Part shown: positions 2,985 through 16,806 of the stretch, piece after piece
Numbering within the stretch: the stretch's first letter is position 1
How the letters are laid out: each line of letters begins with the position of its first letter
Assembly (NCBI GenBank): GCA_964492935.1
Contig: CAZBLF010000006.1
Coordinates: 1 to 43,649 of the forward strand
Reading direction: 5' to 3'
From: an uncultured Methanosarcinales archaeon
GTDB taxonomy: Archaea > Nanobdellota > Nanobdellia > Woesearchaeales > JACPBV01
DNA: 43,649 nucleotides
Made by a program: the position numbers and the translations under genes
The notes under the pieces: model-generated
Seen by the model: the letters and a program-made list of their open reading frames with translations, nothing else
Databases searched by the model: none
Told to the model about the DNA's origin: nothing

Positions 2985-3998
2985 ATGAAATTAAAAGAAA
3001 ACAAAACATACAAATTCCACATTGGGCAACAATCGACATTAATTTCAAAGGCAGCTAGCAAAGCAGGATCAGTAAGAAATCTATCAATTAATTTAAGAAT
3101 TCCCGAGCGGACACTAAAGCATTACAAGGCCGAGGATTTTACTATTCCTTCTCTAAGACTACAACAATTAGTTGATTATCTTCAAATACAGTCAGGAGAT
3201 ATTTCTAAAATGATAAAAAAGGAATTACCCAGACATTGGGGATCTCGTCTTGGAGGACTGAAAACCTACTCAAAAAAGAATCGAAAGGATCTATTGAGAG
3301 ACATGAACTACATTAGATCTTTTAAGAAACCAATAATTTACGATAAGAAATTTCCCTTGACCAACTTTTTTTGTGAGTTTTATGGTATTCTGATGGGCGA
3401 CGGCTGCATTTCAAGCTATACTGACTACCAGGGTAACCGGAGATTGGACCTCATTATCACAGGTGACAAAAGATACGAAATGGCTTATTATCAATACATG
3501 AAAAAAAGGTTGAGGGAGGAATTCAATATCAATAGTTATATCTACCAATTGAAGAAGAGGAATTCTGTCAGACTCACAATAAGAAATAAGTATTTTAGCA
3601 ATTTTCTGATTAATTTTGGATTCCCTAAAGGAAATAAGTATAAGGTCTTAAGAATACCGCCACAAATTATGAAATTTAAGTGGGAAAAGCTAAAGTTCGT
3701 AATTCGAGGGCTTTTTGACACCGATGGGAGCATCTTCGCAAACAAAAATGAAGGATATAGATATCCATATATTTGTATCACATCTATAAGTGGGAAACTA
3801 CTGAATCAATTGTATGGAATCCTAAGAGCTAGAGGTTACCCGGTTTATCTCAGTAATGATAATCTTTTCATGAGGGGAATAGCGAATGTCAATAAATGGA
3901 TGAATGATGTTGGATCTTCCAACCCAAAACATAAATTTAAATACAACTACTGGACTTCAAAGGGCGTATTGCCTGCGAGATTATTATCGGGCCCGTGA
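2985..3998 (+). CDS. Free-standing double-motif LAGLIDADG homing endonuclease with N-terminal HTH-like extension
   Basis: Motifs FYGILMGDG and IRGLFDTDG; AT-rich. Stop TGA (3996-3998) lies inside the tRNA-Ala 5' end. Confidence 0.88.
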   Translation: MKLKENKTYKFHIGQQSTLISKAASKAGSVRNLSINLRIPERTLKHYKAEDFTIPSLRLQQLVDYLQIQSGDISKMIKKELPRHWGSRLGGLKTYSKKNRKDLLRDMNYIRSFKKPIIYDKKFPLTNFFCEFYGILMGDGCISSYTDYQGNRRLDLIITGDKRYEMAYYQYMKKRLREEFNINSYIYQLKKRNSVRLTIRNKYFSNFLINFGFPKGNKYKVLRIPPQIMKFKWEKLKFVIRGLFDTDGSIFANKNEGYRYPYICITSISGKLLNQLYGILRARGYPVYLSNDNLFMRGIANVNKWMNDVGSSNPKHKFKYNYWTSKGVLPARLLSGP

Positions 3999-4080
3999 TT
4001 CAACCCGGTACAATGCAAATTGCGGGAGAGAATACACCCATGGCATGGGTGCTATCCGAGTTCAAATCTCGGCGGGTCCA
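3989..4080 (+). tRNA. tRNA-Ala(GGC) with 19-nt D-loop intron (4010-4028)
   Basis: Acceptor GGGCCCG/CGGGTCC with G3:U70. Anticodon arm CACCC-ATGGCAT-GGGTG. T arm CCGAG-TTCAAAT-CTCGG. BHB-like CCCG/CGGG helix with GTA and AGA bulges; removing the intron restores ATTC-AACCCGGTA-GAAT. Confidence 0.93.
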
Positions 4081-4553: not shown

Positions 4554-5300
4554 ATGGTACTCATACCAACACTCATCAGCGTCATCATCGTTAGCTTAAT
4601 CTCATTAGTAGGAATCCTCTCCGTAATCGTATCCGGAAAGAACCTCAAAAAAATCCTAGTATTCTTTATCAGTTTCTCCGCAGGATCTCTTTTTGGAGGA
4701 GCCTTCTTCCATCTCTTACCCGAAGCAGCTGCAACACTAGGAGTAACATTACAATTTTCAGCCTCAATCCTAGCAGGCATTGTATTTTTCTACGTTCTAG
4801 AAAATTTCATCCACTGGCGACACTGTCACATTCCAACGAGCCACGACCATCCTCACCCGGTAGGCACCATGAGCCTTATTGGAGACGGATTACACAACCT
4901 CATCGATGGTATGGTCATAGCAGCATCCTATCTCATCTCCATTCCAGCCGGCATCGCAACAACCGTAGCCGTAGCCATCCACGAGATCCCTCAAGAGATC
5001 GGAGATTTTGGGGTATTGATTCATGCAGGATATTCAAAGGGAAAAGCACTCTTCCTCAATTTTTGTTCAGCATTGCTAGCAGTAGTGGGAGCACTCACCG
5101 TGTTAGCGATAGGTGCGAAATCTCAACTCTTCGCAACATTATTAGTGCCCTTCACCGCAGGCGGCTTCATCTATATCGCAGGAGCAGATCTCATTCCAGA
5201 ATTAAGAAAGGAAGTCTACCCCATGTCAAAATTACTCACCCAATTCGTTTTCTTCCTAGCTGGAATTGGAATAATGCTACTGTTAACTTTCATAGAATAA
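4554..5300 (+). CDS. ZIP family metal transporter
   Basis: HLLPEA, a His-rich loop, GDGLHNLIDG and HEIPQEIGDF motifs; multiple TM segments. Confidence 0.95.
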   Translation: MVLIPTLISVIIVSLISLVGILSVIVSGKNLKKILVFFISFSAGSLFGGAFFHLLPEAAATLGVTLQFSASILAGIVFFYVLENFIHWRHCHIPTSHDHPHPVGTMSLIGDGLHNLIDGMVIAASYLISIPAGIATTVAVAIHEIPQEIGDFGVLIHAGYSKGKALFLNFCSALLAVVGALTVLAIGAKSQLFATLLVPFTAGGFIYIAGADLIPELRKEVYPMSKLLTQFVFFLAGIGIMLLLTFIE

Positions 5301-5348
5301 CAACCTTTTTATAACAAATTCTGATTCTTTTTAATTGGTGCTGGAGAT

Positions 5349-5547
5349 GCCGGAGTTGCACGATTATGTGCTCCGAGAGCTCAGCCTGGTTAGAGCGCTA
5401 CATTGGATTTGTTTCCAAAGCGAGGCTCATATGTTTGAGCGCTGACCCGTAAGGGGATGACTCAAATCTAACTGGGTGACGTAGAGCAATCGAGAGAAAT
5501 CTCAATGCGCGAAAAAGTCGTGGTTTCAAATCCCACCTCCGGCACCA
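5349..5547 (+). tRNA. tRNA-Met(CAT), elongator type, with four predicted introns (5357-5377, 5402-5424, 5432-5478, 5485-5514); CCA encoded
   Basis: Spliced product GCCGGAG TA GCTC AGCCTGGTTA GAGC G CTACG CTCATAA CGTAG AAGTC GTGGT TTCAAAT CCCAC CTCCGGC A CCA folds as a cloverleaf. Three strict BHB motifs and one relaxed motif. Confidence 0.88.
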
Positions 5548-5613
5548 TTTTCTTTAAATTCACTTTTGGAATTCATTCAAATCACAAAAAGAAGGTAAAC
5601 ATCAAATAATAAT

Positions 5614-5704
5614 TTTCCACTTGCCAACTTAGGTTGTCAAGTCTGAAAGCAAAGAATTCTTACTCTTTAGGTATTCAAGAGGTAAAATCAATTTCCACTT
5701 GCCA
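5614..5704 (+). repeat. Direct repeat TTTCCACTTGCCA (5614-5626 and 5692-5704) upstream of the endonuclease gene
   Basis: 13-nt identity; each copy is preceded by GGTAAA(C)ATCAA. Confidence 0.7.
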
Positions 5705-5779
5705 CTTGCCAGGTGCGGCCGCAGCCTTCTTAAGGAAAATCAATTACAAAGTTTAATCAGTACTAGTAGATCGATTCAA

Positions 5780-6703
5780 ATGAAAAATATCCAAAAGGAA
5801 ATAATAGAAGTTATCAAGTATGTCCCGAGAGAGATTATCCCAAGACGCGGCCATCTGAAACCCCTCAGAGCAGAAGCAAAAGGTAATTCGATCATATTAA
5901 GCTGTAATCACTGTAAGCCAGTTAGAATCAAGAAAGAGATTACCCTCAGAGCAGACGAATACCAGGGAGTGGGACTCTATTTGGCAGAAGGAACGAAGTA
6001 TTACAACCTCAATAAGAAAACGCATCATTGCGGAGAAATAAGCTTTTCAAACTCATATCCTGAATGCATTTTAATCATCTCTAAACTATTTAGTAAATTC
6101 GGCATCAGTCCCAGAGAGTTAAGATGGAGGATTGGACTCAATATAAATCTTGAAGAGACGATTTCTAATGGGGAGTTAGCTGAATTCTGGATAGCCAGTG
6201 CGAAATTGGACAGATCTAAAGCCAGACCAAATGGATTTTACTTCAGTGGTAATAGGGGAAAACGACTCTCAAAAAATCCCGGAAATAAAGGATGCCTTCA
6301 TATCCATTACGCATCTACGATTCTGAGAAATGTTTTCACCTTCTTCATAACTAGAAAACTGGATGAGGCGATAGAAGAAAGGTCTGAATGGAAGTCAGCA
6401 ATGATCCTGAAGGGATTTTTCGCAGGGGATGGGTGTGTGACATATTCGAAAAAGCACAACGGAAGACAGGTAGAGTTCATATGTCATGACAAGATATTAA
6501 TCGAAAAACTTAGAAAATGCCTGCAAATTCTTGGGCTGAAATCCATAAAGGAAACCTGGCCTGCTACTACAAAGACCCACTCCAAGGCGTTGCGCATTTA
6601 CAACACACATGATTTTAGAATTCTAGAGAAATACGAGATTCTAGAACTCATCCCACACAAACGCGAAGTGTTCAAGAAACTGCTTAAATCATTACCACCA
6701 TAA
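5780..6703 (+). CDS. Free-standing double-motif LAGLIDADG homing endonuclease-like protein
   Basis: Motifs GVGLYLAEG and LKGFFAGDG. ATG 5780 is preferred over TTG 5699. Confidence 0.8.
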   Translation: MKNIQKEIIEVIKYVPREIIPRRGHLKPLRAEAKGNSIILSCNHCKPVRIKKEITLRADEYQGVGLYLAEGTKYYNLNKKTHHCGEISFSNSYPECILIISKLFSKFGISPRELRWRIGLNINLEETISNGELAEFWIASAKLDRSKARPNGFYFSGNRGKRLSKNPGNKGCLHIHYASTILRNVFTFFITRKLDEAIEERSEWKSAMILKGFFAGDGCVTYSKKHNGRQVEFICHDKILIEKLRKCLQILGLKSIKETWPATTKTHSKALRIYNTHDFRILEKYEILELIPHKREVFKKLLKSLPP

Positions 6704-16359: not shown

Positions 16360-16473
16360 CGCCACCGCCCGGATTCGAACCAGGATATCCAAAGGAAAGA
16401 CGCTCTCACGATGATGTCCTGAGCAAGCTCAAGATTTCGAGGCGACCGCAATACCAGATTATGCGACAGTGGC
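16360..16473 (-). tRNA. tRNA-Ser(CGA) with 31-nt canonical 37/38 intron (16405-16435)
   Basis: GCCACTG/CGGTGGC acceptor, G73, long variable arm, CT-CGA-A loop, CCTGG-TTCGAAT-CCGGG T arm. Confidence 0.9.
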
Positions 16474-16679: not shown

Positions 16680-16806
16680 CGCTGCGACTCGGATTTGAAC
16701 CAAGATAGGCCGAAGCCAACAAGCTGTCTGGTACGATTTTCCAAGCCTACGCCTTCTTTATCGAGGATAAAAAAGTTTGCGCAGTACCAGATTGTGCCAT
16801 CGCAGC
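16680..16806 (-). tRNA. tRNA-Ser(GGA) with two introns: 29/30 (16747-16776, 30 nt) and 37/38 (16726-16738, 13 nt)
   Basis: GCTGCGA/TCGCAGC acceptor, G73, long variable arm. BHB helices GCGC/GCGT and TTGG/CCAG. Spliced anticodon arm CAAGC-TTGGAAA-GCTTG. Confidence 0.9.

What the first reader, a model, noticed from the sequence alone, without database searches (positions are those of the whole stretch)
5333..5550. Decoy copy of the acceptor strand in the tRNA-Met leader may enable splicing of the 8/9 intron
Seen: GGTGCTGGAG (5337-5346), just upstream of the tRNA and about 25 nt after a TTTTTATA box, is complementary (one G-U pair) to the 3' end CTCCGGCACC (5537-5546). The BHB of intron 1 needs tRNA bases 1-7 paired with the intron and D-stem instead of the acceptor stem. 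Inference: the leader sequesters the 3' acceptor strand, freeing bases 1-7 to form the BHB and delaying RNase P cleavage until splicing is complete.
Basis: inference. Interest (0 to 1): 0.7.

Follow-up and report, generated by a model that had tools for sequence, protein, structure and literature searches.

The report
Spare acceptor strand in tRNA leader
Just ahead of an archaeal methionine tRNA gene sits a spare copy of the tRNA's first seven bases, which probably holds the tRNA's tail so that the real first strand can fold into the cutting signal of an intron; many other archaeal tRNA genes have the same helper, and I found no paper describing it.

Summary
Bases 5337-5346 pair with 5537-5546 (10 bp, one G-U; 11 bp counting 5336:5547). 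Shuffled leaders reach 10 bp in 2 of 20,000 trials, and the genome's other 33 tRNA genes reach at most 7 bp.

The gene (5349-5547) is a four-intron elongator-type tRNA-Met. Intron 1 (8/9) has a strict bulge-helix-bulge (BHB) motif that uses tRNA bases 1-6. The leader element is a near-copy of the 5' acceptor strand and lies where a tRNA 5' end normally lies behind the TATA box.

The layout is general:
- All 53 resolved metagenomic and genomic tRNA genes with an 8/9 intron carry such a copy, matched to their own acceptor (8 acceptor types).
- None of 34 intronless controls carries one.
- Within families the copy never varies, while the flanking leader and spacer vary at 42-48% of columns.
- Folding predicts that the copy captures the 3' strand and lowers the cost of the BHB helix in 53 of 53 genes.

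There is no transcript or enzyme evidence. How the copy is released after splicing is unexplained, and one 9/10-intron gene lacks a copy.

I found no published description in the library searched. Earlier agents of this scan noted the same device on other archaeal DNA.

The parts
5306..5313 (+). TATA box of the tRNA-Met promoter
   Evidence: It matches 8 of 8 positions of a simple archaeal TATA consensus. The same box and flanking sequence are conserved in the syntenic same-genus relative. In 30 of the 33 intronless control genes with a recognisable TATA box (34 examined), the spacing from the box to the tRNA 5' end is 21-29 bases.
5337..5346 (+). Leader element. A spare copy of the 5' acceptor strand (5340-5346, one C-to-T change) is preceded by GGT. 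The whole is complementary to the 3' acceptor strand, the discriminator and CC.
   Evidence: It lies 26 bases after the TATA box, which is where a tRNA 5' end normally lies. It aligns with exon 1 of the same-genus ortholog, which lacks intron 1. The transcription start near 5335-5339 is inferred from spacing, not observed.
5347..5348 (+). Two-base spacer between the spare copy and the tRNA
   Evidence: Spacers in the 53 homologous layouts are 1-16 bases long.
5349..5356 (+). Exon 1, tRNA bases 1-8
   Evidence: BHB geometry. Intronless orthologs have the same bases 1-9 contiguous. ARAGORN calls the spliced product tRNA-Met.
5357..5377 (+). Intron 1 (21 bases, position 8/9), strict BHB
   Evidence: central helix 5351-5354 with 5372-5375, two 3-base bulges, an inner helix of 5 pairs (as counted by the scan, which allows G-U) and an outer helix of 2 bp (bases 1-2 with 10-11).
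5378..5401 (+). Exon 2, tRNA bases 9-30 (D arm and the start of the anticodon stem)
5402..5424 (+). Intron 2 (23 bases, position 30/31), strict BHB
5425..5431 (+). Exon 3, tRNA bases 31-37 with anticodon CAT
5432..5478 (+). Intron 3 (47 bases, canonical position 37/38)
   Evidence: the central helix and both bulges are present, and the inner helix has 3 bp. The outer helix is complete only once intron 2 is out. The intron sequence is conserved in relatives.
5479..5484 (+). Exon 4, tRNA bases 38-43
5485..5514 (+). Intron 4 (about 30 bases, position 43/44), relaxed motif. A run of A makes the ends uncertain by 1-2 bases.
   Evidence: Placed by analogy with L034 and L032 (by eye). Its removal gives the variable loop of the same-genus ortholog and a sequence that ARAGORN accepts as a tRNA.
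5515..5547 (+). Exon 5: variable loop, T arm (with a U53-C61 mismatch), 3' acceptor strand 5537-5543, discriminator 5544 and encoded CCA 5545-5547
5548..5551 (+). Run of T, the likely transcription stop
   Evidence: Read directly from the sequence. Most tRNA genes of this genome end in such a run. That it acts as a stop is inferred.

Best explanation
The leader of this tRNA-Met precursor begins with a spare copy of the tRNA's 5' acceptor strand, a 'pseudo-acceptor' or decoy strand.

Proposed pathway (inferred):
1. During transcription, the real 5' strand folds at once with intron 1 into a local BHB hairpin.
2. When the 3' acceptor strand is made about 190 bases later, the spare copy pairs with it. 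In the window this helix is 10-11 bp, including the discriminator and CC.
3. The 3' strand therefore does not invade and destroy the BHB.
4. The splicing endonuclease can then remove intron 1.
5. After ligation the real strand must replace the copy, and RNase P, whose RNA gene is present in the genome, removes the leader.

Shown: the anatomy; that the layout is general; co-variation with the acceptor stem; invariance of the copy within families; and the predicted energetics.

Inferred: that the element is transcribed; that the helix forms in the cell; that it is needed for splicing; and the order of events.
For: (1) Anatomy. The window has a 10-11 bp complementarity, far beyond shuffles and beyond the other 33 tRNA genes. 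Intron 1 has a strict BHB that uses bases 1-6. Removing the four introns by coordinates gives a sequence that ARAGORN calls tRNA-Met(CAT).

(2) Promoter geometry. The TATA box ends 26 bases before the copy. In 20 of the 23 homologous genes with a clear TATA box the distance is 21-26 bases. That matches the TATA-to-+1 spacing of intronless genes, which is 21-29 in 30 of 33.

(3) Generality. From 101 loci (73 distinct sequences), 53 tRNA genes with an 8/9 intron could be resolved. All 53 have a leader 7-mer with at most 1 mismatch to their own 5' strand and at least 6 of 7 pairs with their own 3' strand; 43 have 7 of 7. None of 34 intronless genes with the same D arm has one; their best Hamming distance is 2-4. 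Seven relatives' orthologs without intron 1, including the syntenic same-genus one, lack it.

(4) Co-variation. There are 8 acceptor types in 23 families. Leader copies pair with their own 3' strand at a mean of 6.61 Watson-Crick pairs, against 5.05 for permuted partners (0 of 10,000 permutations reach the observed value). With one representative per acceptor type, 2 of 40,320 permutations reach it. In L087 and L084 the copy makes an A-T pair where the real strand makes G-T, so the copy follows the 3' strand and not the intron.

(5) Constraint. In the 7 families with 3 or more distinct sequences, variable columns are 0 of 49 in the copy and 0 of 56 in exon 1. They are 40 of 84 in the 12 bases upstream and 18 of 43 in the spacer.

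(6) Energetics (ViennaRNA, 53 precursors).
- With the leader, the copy:3' strand helix has mean probability 0.95 and the real acceptor stem 0.01.
- With the leader deleted, the real acceptor stem has 0.95 and the BHB 0.01.
- The cost of forcing the BHB central helix falls in 53 of 53 genes. The median is 10.4 kcal/mol without the leader and 3.6 with it. In the window it falls from 10.6 to 1.3.

(7) The machinery is present in the genome: RNase P RNA and a splicing-endonuclease catalytic domain.
Against: There is no transcript evidence of any kind, so the start site is inferred only from spacing.

Even with the leader, the BHB central helix is the predicted dominant fold (probability above 0.5) in only 7 of 53 genes. 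In the window the probability is 0.49.

After in-silico removal of all four introns, the conformer with the copy paired is still 7.5 kcal/mol more stable than the one with the real acceptor stem (-36.1 against -28.6). The model therefore lacks a release step.

One gene family (L072 and L076) has an intron at 9/10 whose BHB also uses bases 1-7, yet has no leader copy.

In 10 of the 53 genes (L042, L052, L053, L054, L057, L062, L065, L091, L101, L102) the copy's base 7 does not pair with the 3' strand.

Complementarity of the base before the copy to the discriminator holds in 19 of 23 families. That is not far above intronless controls, where it holds in 18 of 32.

All homologs were found with one D-arm pattern and are related to unknown degrees, so 53 of 53 is not 53 independent events. 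The controls come from the window's own order, not from the lineages of most hits.
Confidence: 0.65

Rival explanations
1. Scaffold or timer. The copy:3' strand helix does form, but its job is not to license the BHB. Instead it gives the unspliced precursor an acceptor-like helix for 3' end processing, modification or protection. Or it blocks RNase P and CCA-dependent steps until the body is finished.
For: The helix is predicted at probability 0.95. In the window it reaches into the discriminator and CC. Pairing of a leader with 3' RCCA is reported to inhibit bacterial RNase P (PMC9433436, abstract as shown in the listing). The BHB is not the predicted dominant fold in most homologs.
Against: The element is tied to introns whose BHB consumes the 5' strand. 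It is absent from 34 intronless controls and from the other tRNA genes of this genome, many of which have introns elsewhere. A general scaffold or timer would not be so specific. The extension into positions 73-75 is short or absent in many families.
Confidence: 0.15
2. Relic. The copy is a by-product of how the intron arrived: a tandem duplication, or insertion of a BHB cassette that brought its own exon-1 flank. It has no function and has simply not decayed yet.
For: The copy and exon 1 are near-tandem repeats. The copy aligns with exon 1 of the intronless same-genus ortholog, so the net difference is an insertion of about 30 bases that forms a self-contained BHB hairpin. The locus differs sharply from that of a relative whose neighbouring ZIP gene is 91% identical in protein, which suggests a recent allele swap. 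A LAGLIDADG-type ORF absent from that relative lies next to it.
Against: Within families the copy is invariant (0 of 49 variable columns) while the sequence on both sides varies at 42-48% of columns. Copies match 8 different acceptor types. In two cases the copy fits the 3' strand better than the real strand does. A decaying relic would not behave like this. An origin by duplication is compatible with later function.
Confidence: 0.12
3. Alternative exon. The leader copy forms its own BHB with the 3' part of intron 1. The endonuclease then removes 5348-5377 and joins the copy directly to base 9, giving a second tRNA form.
For: The BHB scan finds this alternative motif in the window: helix 5342-5345 with 5372-5375, which would excise 5348-5377. 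Both 7-mers satisfy the helix test in most homologs.
Against: The inner helix of the alternative motif has only 2 bp in the window, against 5 pairs for the real one. The product would carry A at position 8. Across the 53 genes the base after the copy is G, A or C in 51 and T in 2, whereas U8 is nearly universal in tRNAs (established knowledge, recalled). Intronless orthologs match the product of the downstream copy. L084 and L087 copies would mispair with the intron or D stem.
Confidence: 0.05

Closest known systems
Non-canonical and multiple BHB introns of archaeal tRNA genes (reviews PMC4090602 and PMC4033280: passages read; Marck and Grosjean 2003 and Sugahara 2008: recalled, not read)
   Same: Introns 1-4 are of this kind. 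Introns 1 and 2 have strict hBHBh' motifs at non-canonical positions, several introns sit in one gene, and a splicing endonuclease is present in the genome.
   Different: [quoted passage not shown] The searches for 'leader' and 'acceptor stem' in these reviews gave only split and permuted tRNA contexts.
Split tRNA halves joined through complementary leader and trailer sequences (Nanoarchaeum, Caldivirga; passages in PMC4033280, PMC4090602, PMC3293823)
   Same: Sequence outside the mature tRNA pairs with another part of the precursor to make splicing possible.
   Different: In split tRNAs the complementary extensions themselves build the BHB and are cut off by the endonuclease. Here the leader pairs with the mature 3' acceptor strand, is not part of any BHB, and must be removed by a 5' end nuclease.
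Pairing of the 5' leader with 3' RCCA that extends the acceptor stem and inhibits bacterial RNase P (PMC9433436; only the abstract in the search listing was seen)
   Same: Leader bases pair with the discriminator and CC. In the window this is GGT with ACC.
   Different: In that case the real acceptor stem is formed and merely extended. Here a second copy of the strand replaces the real one. The effect on archaeal RNase P is untested.
Permuted tRNA genes, found as outliers in promoter-to-tRNA distance (PMC3218864, passages read)
   Same: The promoter lies unusually far from the mature 5' end, and the extra sequence is tRNA-derived.
   Different: [quoted passage not shown] Here it is a duplicate of bases 1-7, and leader and trailer form no BHB.
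Ordered splicing of nested introns in multi-intron pre-tRNAs (Tocchini-Valentini and co-workers 2009; recalled, not read)
   Same: BHB motifs in one precursor are mutually exclusive with other pairings, so folding must proceed in steps. Introns 2 and 3 here compete for bases 32-35.
   Different: In that work the order is set by the introns themselves. No extra strand outside the tRNA is involved.

Membership tests
Archaeal BHB (hBHBh') tRNA intron | Two 3-base bulges on opposite strands, separated by a 4-bp helix | tested here: met
   Met for introns 1 and 2 in the strict scan. Intron 3 has the helix and both bulges. Intron 4 has only a relaxed form, with 3 of 4 pairs judged by eye.
Archaeal BHB (hBHBh') tRNA intron | Flanking helices on both sides of the motif | tested here: met
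   Intron 1 has an inner helix of 5 pairs and an outer helix of 2 bp. Intron 2 has 5 and 3. The outer helix of intron 3 is complete only after intron 2 is removed.
Archaeal BHB (hBHBh') tRNA intron | Excision at the bulges restores a canonical tRNA | tested here: met
   Joining the exons by coordinates gives a sequence that ARAGORN calls tRNA-Met(CAT). Bases 1-9 then equal those of intronless orthologs. The cleavage position within the bulges is taken from established knowledge (recalled).
Archaeal BHB (hBHBh') tRNA intron | A splicing endonuclease is encoded, and splicing is observed | tested here: inconclusive
   A PF01974 catalytic domain is present at G000:C25:11548-11808. Splicing itself could not be observed, because no RNA run is listed.
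Elongator tRNA-Met | CAU anticodon, G1-C72 rather than the A1-U72 of archaeal initiators, and a cloverleaf | tested here: met
   The only other CAU tRNA that ARAGORN finds in the genome starts with A and ends with U before the discriminator. Two caveats apply: the T stem has a U53-C61 mismatch, and a CAU anticodon could also serve tRNA-Ile2.
Split or permuted tRNA | Leader and trailer (or the termini) pair to form a BHB that the endonuclease cuts | tested here: not met
   The leader:3' end helix is continuous and has no bulges. The BHB scan finds no motif joining leader and trailer.
Leader copy ('pseudo-acceptor') layout as defined here | A 7-mer with at most 1 mismatch to the gene's own 5' acceptor strand, 1-16 bases upstream of +1, in a gene with an 8/9 intron | tested here: met
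   In the window the copy is at 5340-5346, with 1 mismatch and a 2-base spacer. The same holds in 53 of 53 resolved homologous layouts and in 0 of 34 controls.
Leader copy ('pseudo-acceptor') layout as defined here | The copy is transcribed and pairs with the 3' strand in the precursor | not testable with these tools
   The evidence is indirect only: promoter spacing and predicted pairing probability.

The most novel reading that the evidence does not exclude
Archaeal tRNA genes whose introns sit next to the 5' acceptor strand depend on a dedicated cis element that has not been described: a transcribed spare acceptor strand. It stands in for the real strand in the acceptor helix until the intron is out and is then displaced and cut off. 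On this reading, tRNA maturation in several archaeal phyla includes an obligatory strand-exchange step. The element would also explain how BHB motifs that conflict with the cloverleaf can form at all, and why such genes escape tRNA finders.
Probability: 0.45. Interest if true: 0.9.

Novelty: new variant of a known kind. Interest (0 to 1): 0.8.

Why it matters
Introns at positions where the BHB competes with the tRNA's own helices have been catalogued for about two decades. How such precursors fold into the splice signal has stayed an open point. A conserved, co-varying spare strand in the leader gives a concrete answer that can be tested.

It adds a new class of functional sequence outside the mature tRNA. 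It predicts a strand-exchange step before RNase P acts.

It also has practical use. Gene finders that miss these tRNAs, as ARAGORN and Rfam both missed this one, could use the two-copy signature. Annotators should also not mistake the spare copy for exon 1.

Tried and rejected
- **tRNA finders.** ARAGORN (with and without introns) and Rfam at gathering score do not find the gene. I worked out the anatomy by hand and with a BHB scan.
- **RNA evidence.** No RNA holder is listed for window:5200-5650. I did not lay any reads.
- **Permuted or split gene.** Rejected. The extra piece is a copy of bases 1-7, and no leader-trailer BHB exists.
- **Alternative BHB through the copy.** It exists in the window, but I rejected it as the main route (see rivals).
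- **Base before the copy pairing with the discriminator.** I dropped this as proof of pairing. It holds in 19 of 23 families, against 18 of 32 controls.
  - The first gene classification mixed in GC-rich intronless genes and picked some wrong 3' ends. One search replaced it.
  - still misfiles L084 as intronless. One search shows that L084 has the layout.
  - The D-stem columns were wrong, so I ignore those numbers.
  - One search had a one-base register error in the pair list; one search fixed it.
  - timed out and was rewritten.
- **Other genes in this genome.** The own-genome scan for further genes with the layout returned 49 hits. Only the window gene is a tRNA; the others lack a T loop by eye.
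- **Own phylum.** The D-arm pattern with a non-T base before it occurs in 1 of 401 sampled genomes, G000 itself. In the species-representative collection it gave one locus, L032.
- **LAGLIDADG neighbour.** It was not found in G001 or in the genome of L032 with this query, so the idea that it carries the allele stays a lead only.
- **Literature.** Five full-text searches and term look-ups in PMC4090602, PMC4033280, PMC12397907, PMC3293823, PMC3218864 and PMC5829648 gave no description of such a leader copy. Subscription-only papers and supplements were not seen.

Full report
**What is at the site**

The window is contig C6 of a 1.15-Mb, 57-contig archaeal assembly. An earlier scan note calls it DPANN/Woesearchaeota-like; I did not check this.

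Between a ZIP-transporter gene (4554-5300) and a LAGLIDADG-domain ORF (5699-6703) lies a tRNA gene. ARAGORN and Rfam both miss it. Reading the sequence and scanning for bulge-helix-bulge motifs gives this anatomy:

| Part | Coordinates | Note |
|---|---|---|
| Exon 1 | 5349-5356 | tRNA bases 1-8 |
| Intron 1 | 5357-5377 | position 8/9, strict BHB |
| Exon 2 | 5378-5401 | |
| Intron 2 | 5402-5424 | position 30/31, strict BHB |
| Exon 3 | 5425-5431 | anticodon CAT |
| Intron 3 | 5432-5478 | position 37/38 |
| Exon 4 | 5479-5484 | |
| Intron 4 | about 5485-5514 | position 43/44, relaxed motif, placed by analogy with L034 and L032 |
| Exon 5 | 5515-5547 | includes an encoded CCA |

Joining the exons by coordinates gives a sequence that ARAGORN accepts as tRNA-Met(CAT). 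The only other CAU tRNA that ARAGORN finds in the assembly has the A1-U72 ends of an initiator. This gene is therefore the only elongator-type Met tRNA seen in an assembly that is 85% complete. RNase P RNA and a splicing-endonuclease domain are both present.

**The observation**

GGTGCTGGAG (5337-5346) is complementary to CTCCGGCACC (5537-5546) with one G-U pair. T5336:A5547 adds an 11th pair.

- Only 2 of 20,000 shuffled leaders reach 10 bp.
- The other 33 tRNA genes of the genome reach 3-7 bp.

The BHB of intron 1 pairs bases 3-6 with the intron and bases 1-2 with bases 10-11, so it cannot coexist with the acceptor stem.

**Is the element transcribed?**

There are no RNA data, so I used promoter geometry.

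- In this genome most tRNA genes have a TATA-like box ending some 24-27 bases before +1 (by eye).
- In 30 of the 33 intronless controls with a clear box, the distance is 21-29 bases.
- In the window the box (5306-5313) ends 26 bases before the copy and 35 bases before the real +1.
- In 20 of the 23 homologous genes with a clear box, it ends 21-26 bases before the copy.

So the copy sits where a tRNA 5' end normally sits. The transcript should begin 1-4 bases upstream of it, near 5335-5339.

**Comparison with relatives**

The same-genus relative G001 is syntenic. Its ZIP protein is 91% identical, and its promoter is nearly identical up to 5328. It has neither intron 1 nor the copy, and its exon 1 aligns with the window's copy. 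Six further orthologs from the family and order also lack both.

**Is the layout general?**

I scanned public collections for the D-arm sequence preceded by any base other than T. This found one genome locus (L032) and 99 metagenome stretches (L033-L131). Together with the window these are 101 loci, or 73 distinct sequences. They break down as follows.

- **13 sequences:** classed as intronless genes whose base 8 is not T. One of these, L084, turns out on inspection to have the layout.
- **7 sequences:** unresolved.
  - L033, L107, L113 and L127 are cut off at the 3' end, but both copies are visible by eye.
  - L072 and L076 have an intron at 9/10 and no copy.
  - L083 is unclear.
- **53 sequences:** resolved genes with an 8/9 intron.

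All 53 resolved genes have a leader 7-mer with at most 1 mismatch to their own 5' strand and at least 6 of 7 pairs with their own 3' strand (7 of 7 in 43). The copy lies 1-16 bases upstream of +1.

None of 34 intronless genes with the same D arm has such a copy. In the window's own genome no other tRNA gene has the layout. In a 401-genome sample of its phylum, only G000 has the pattern. Most hits therefore come from other lineages.

**Selection or accident?**

The 53 genes fall into 23 families with 8 acceptor sequences and several anticodons.

- *Match to own partner.* Copies match their own 3' strand far better than those of other families: 6.61 Watson-Crick pairs against 5.05. None of 10,000 permutations reaches the observed value. 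With one gene per acceptor type, 2 of 40,320 permutations reach it.
- *Variation within families.* In the 7 families with 3 or more distinct members, the copy never varies (0 of 49 columns), and neither does exon 1 (0 of 56). The 12 bases upstream vary at 40 of 84 columns and the spacer at 18 of 43.
- *Which partner the copy follows.* In L087 and L084 the copy makes an A-T pair with the 3' strand where the real strand makes G-T. The same change would break pairing with the intron or the D stem.

These results argue for purifying selection on pairing with the 3' strand.

Several caveats apply. The families are related to unknown degrees. All were found through one D-arm pattern. In 10 genes, base 7 of the copy mispairs. 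Complementarity of the preceding base to the discriminator (19 of 23 families) is not clearly above controls (18 of 32).

**Energetics (ViennaRNA, 37 C)**

| Quantity | With leader | Leader deleted |
|---|---|---|
| Copy:3' strand helix, mean probability | 0.95 | not applicable |
| Real acceptor stem, mean probability | 0.01 | 0.95 |
| BHB pairs, mean probability | 0.13 | 0.01 |
| Genes with BHB central helix above 0.5 | 7 of 53 | 0 of 53 |
| BHB central helix in the window | 0.49 | 0.00 |
| Cost of forcing that helix, median (kcal/mol) | 3.6 | 10.4 |
| Same cost in the window (kcal/mol) | 1.3 | 10.6 |

The cost of forcing the central helix falls in 53 of 53 genes. The robust predicted effect is that the copy frees the real 5' strand.

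The BHB itself often remains a minority fold in the model. This may reflect how poorly such motifs are scored, or a need for the enzyme to capture them.

After all introns are removed in silico, the copy still wins by 7.5 kcal/mol. How the real strand takes over before RNase P acts is unexplained.

**Origin**

Relative to G001, the net change is an insertion of about 30 bases that is itself a complete BHB hairpin carrying a second exon 1. Along with it come intron 4, the CCA and a different downstream region.

That downstream region holds a LAGLIDADG-type ORF, which was not found in G001 or in the genome of L032 with this query. This looks like a recent allele replacement. It fits, but does not prove, an earlier scan note that such units travel beside a DNA-cutting gene.

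**Known or new?**

Five full-text searches and term look-ups in six papers turned up split-tRNA leaders, permuted genes and leader-RCCA pairing. None described a spare acceptor strand. I saw only open-access text and no supplements.

Earlier agents of this scan reported the same device on other DNA. The lineages were Asgard, DPANN, Aenigmatarchaeota and a thaumarchaeon, with introns at 3/4, 4/5, 7/8 and 8/9. Those notes are unchecked and are not independent evidence, but they suggest the rule reaches beyond position 8/9.

**Verdict**

The element is an undescribed accessory of a known intron system. It awaits transcript mapping and an in vitro splicing test.

Noticed in passing
window 5699-6703 (+): A 334-aa ORF with a LAGLIDADG_3 domain lies directly after the tRNA-Met gene. 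It was not found in the same-genus genome G001 or in the genome of L032 with this query. A 29%-identical paralogue lies at G000:C8:7699-8478. It could be a homing-type gene linked to the intron-bearing allele.
   Followed up: partly
window 2985-3998 (+) and 3989-4080 (+): A second LAGLIDADG_3 ORF ends inside a tRNA-like stretch. That stretch has a matching acceptor pair and a good T arm but an odd D region. ARAGORN and Rfam miss it, no BHB was found, and no promoter is visible.
   Followed up: partly
window 5396-5431 and 5473-5484: The BHB of intron 2 uses bases 32-34 as its outer helix. The BHB of intron 3 uses bases 32-35 as its central helix, and its own outer helix is interrupted by intron 2. 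The two motifs therefore exclude each other and must be processed in order.
   Followed up: partly
window 5520-5536: The T stem of the mature tRNA-Met has a U53-C61 mismatch. The close relative L120 instead has U50-C64.
   Followed up: no
window 5545-5547: CCA is encoded in this tRNA gene only, out of the 34 listed for the genome. The close relative L120 has it too, but the same-genus ortholog does not.
   Followed up: partly
L072 and L076: A tRNA gene with an intron at 9/10 whose BHB also uses bases 1-7, yet with no spare copy in the leader. It is an exception to the rule.
   Followed up: partly
L068, L066, L071, L074, L078, L115, L125: In the families with long spacers, the last spacer bases (ending in GG) can extend the outer BHB helix into D-stem bases 12-15. 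Part of the spacer is also self-complementary with the start of the real strand (by eye).
   Followed up: no
L038, L039, L055, L073, L081, L088, L095, L097, L099, L114, L122; L044: Intronless tRNA genes from GC-rich metagenome contigs carry C at position 8 (A in L044) instead of the usual T.
   Followed up: no
G000:C19:10509-10694 (-): An exact second copy of the first nine bases of a tRNA lies 111 bases upstream of the gene, well beyond its promoter.
   Followed up: no
window 16360-16473 (-) and 16680-16806 (-): Two further intron-containing tRNA genes in the window score just above the Rfam cut-off, at 32.0 and 31.7 bits.
   Followed up: no
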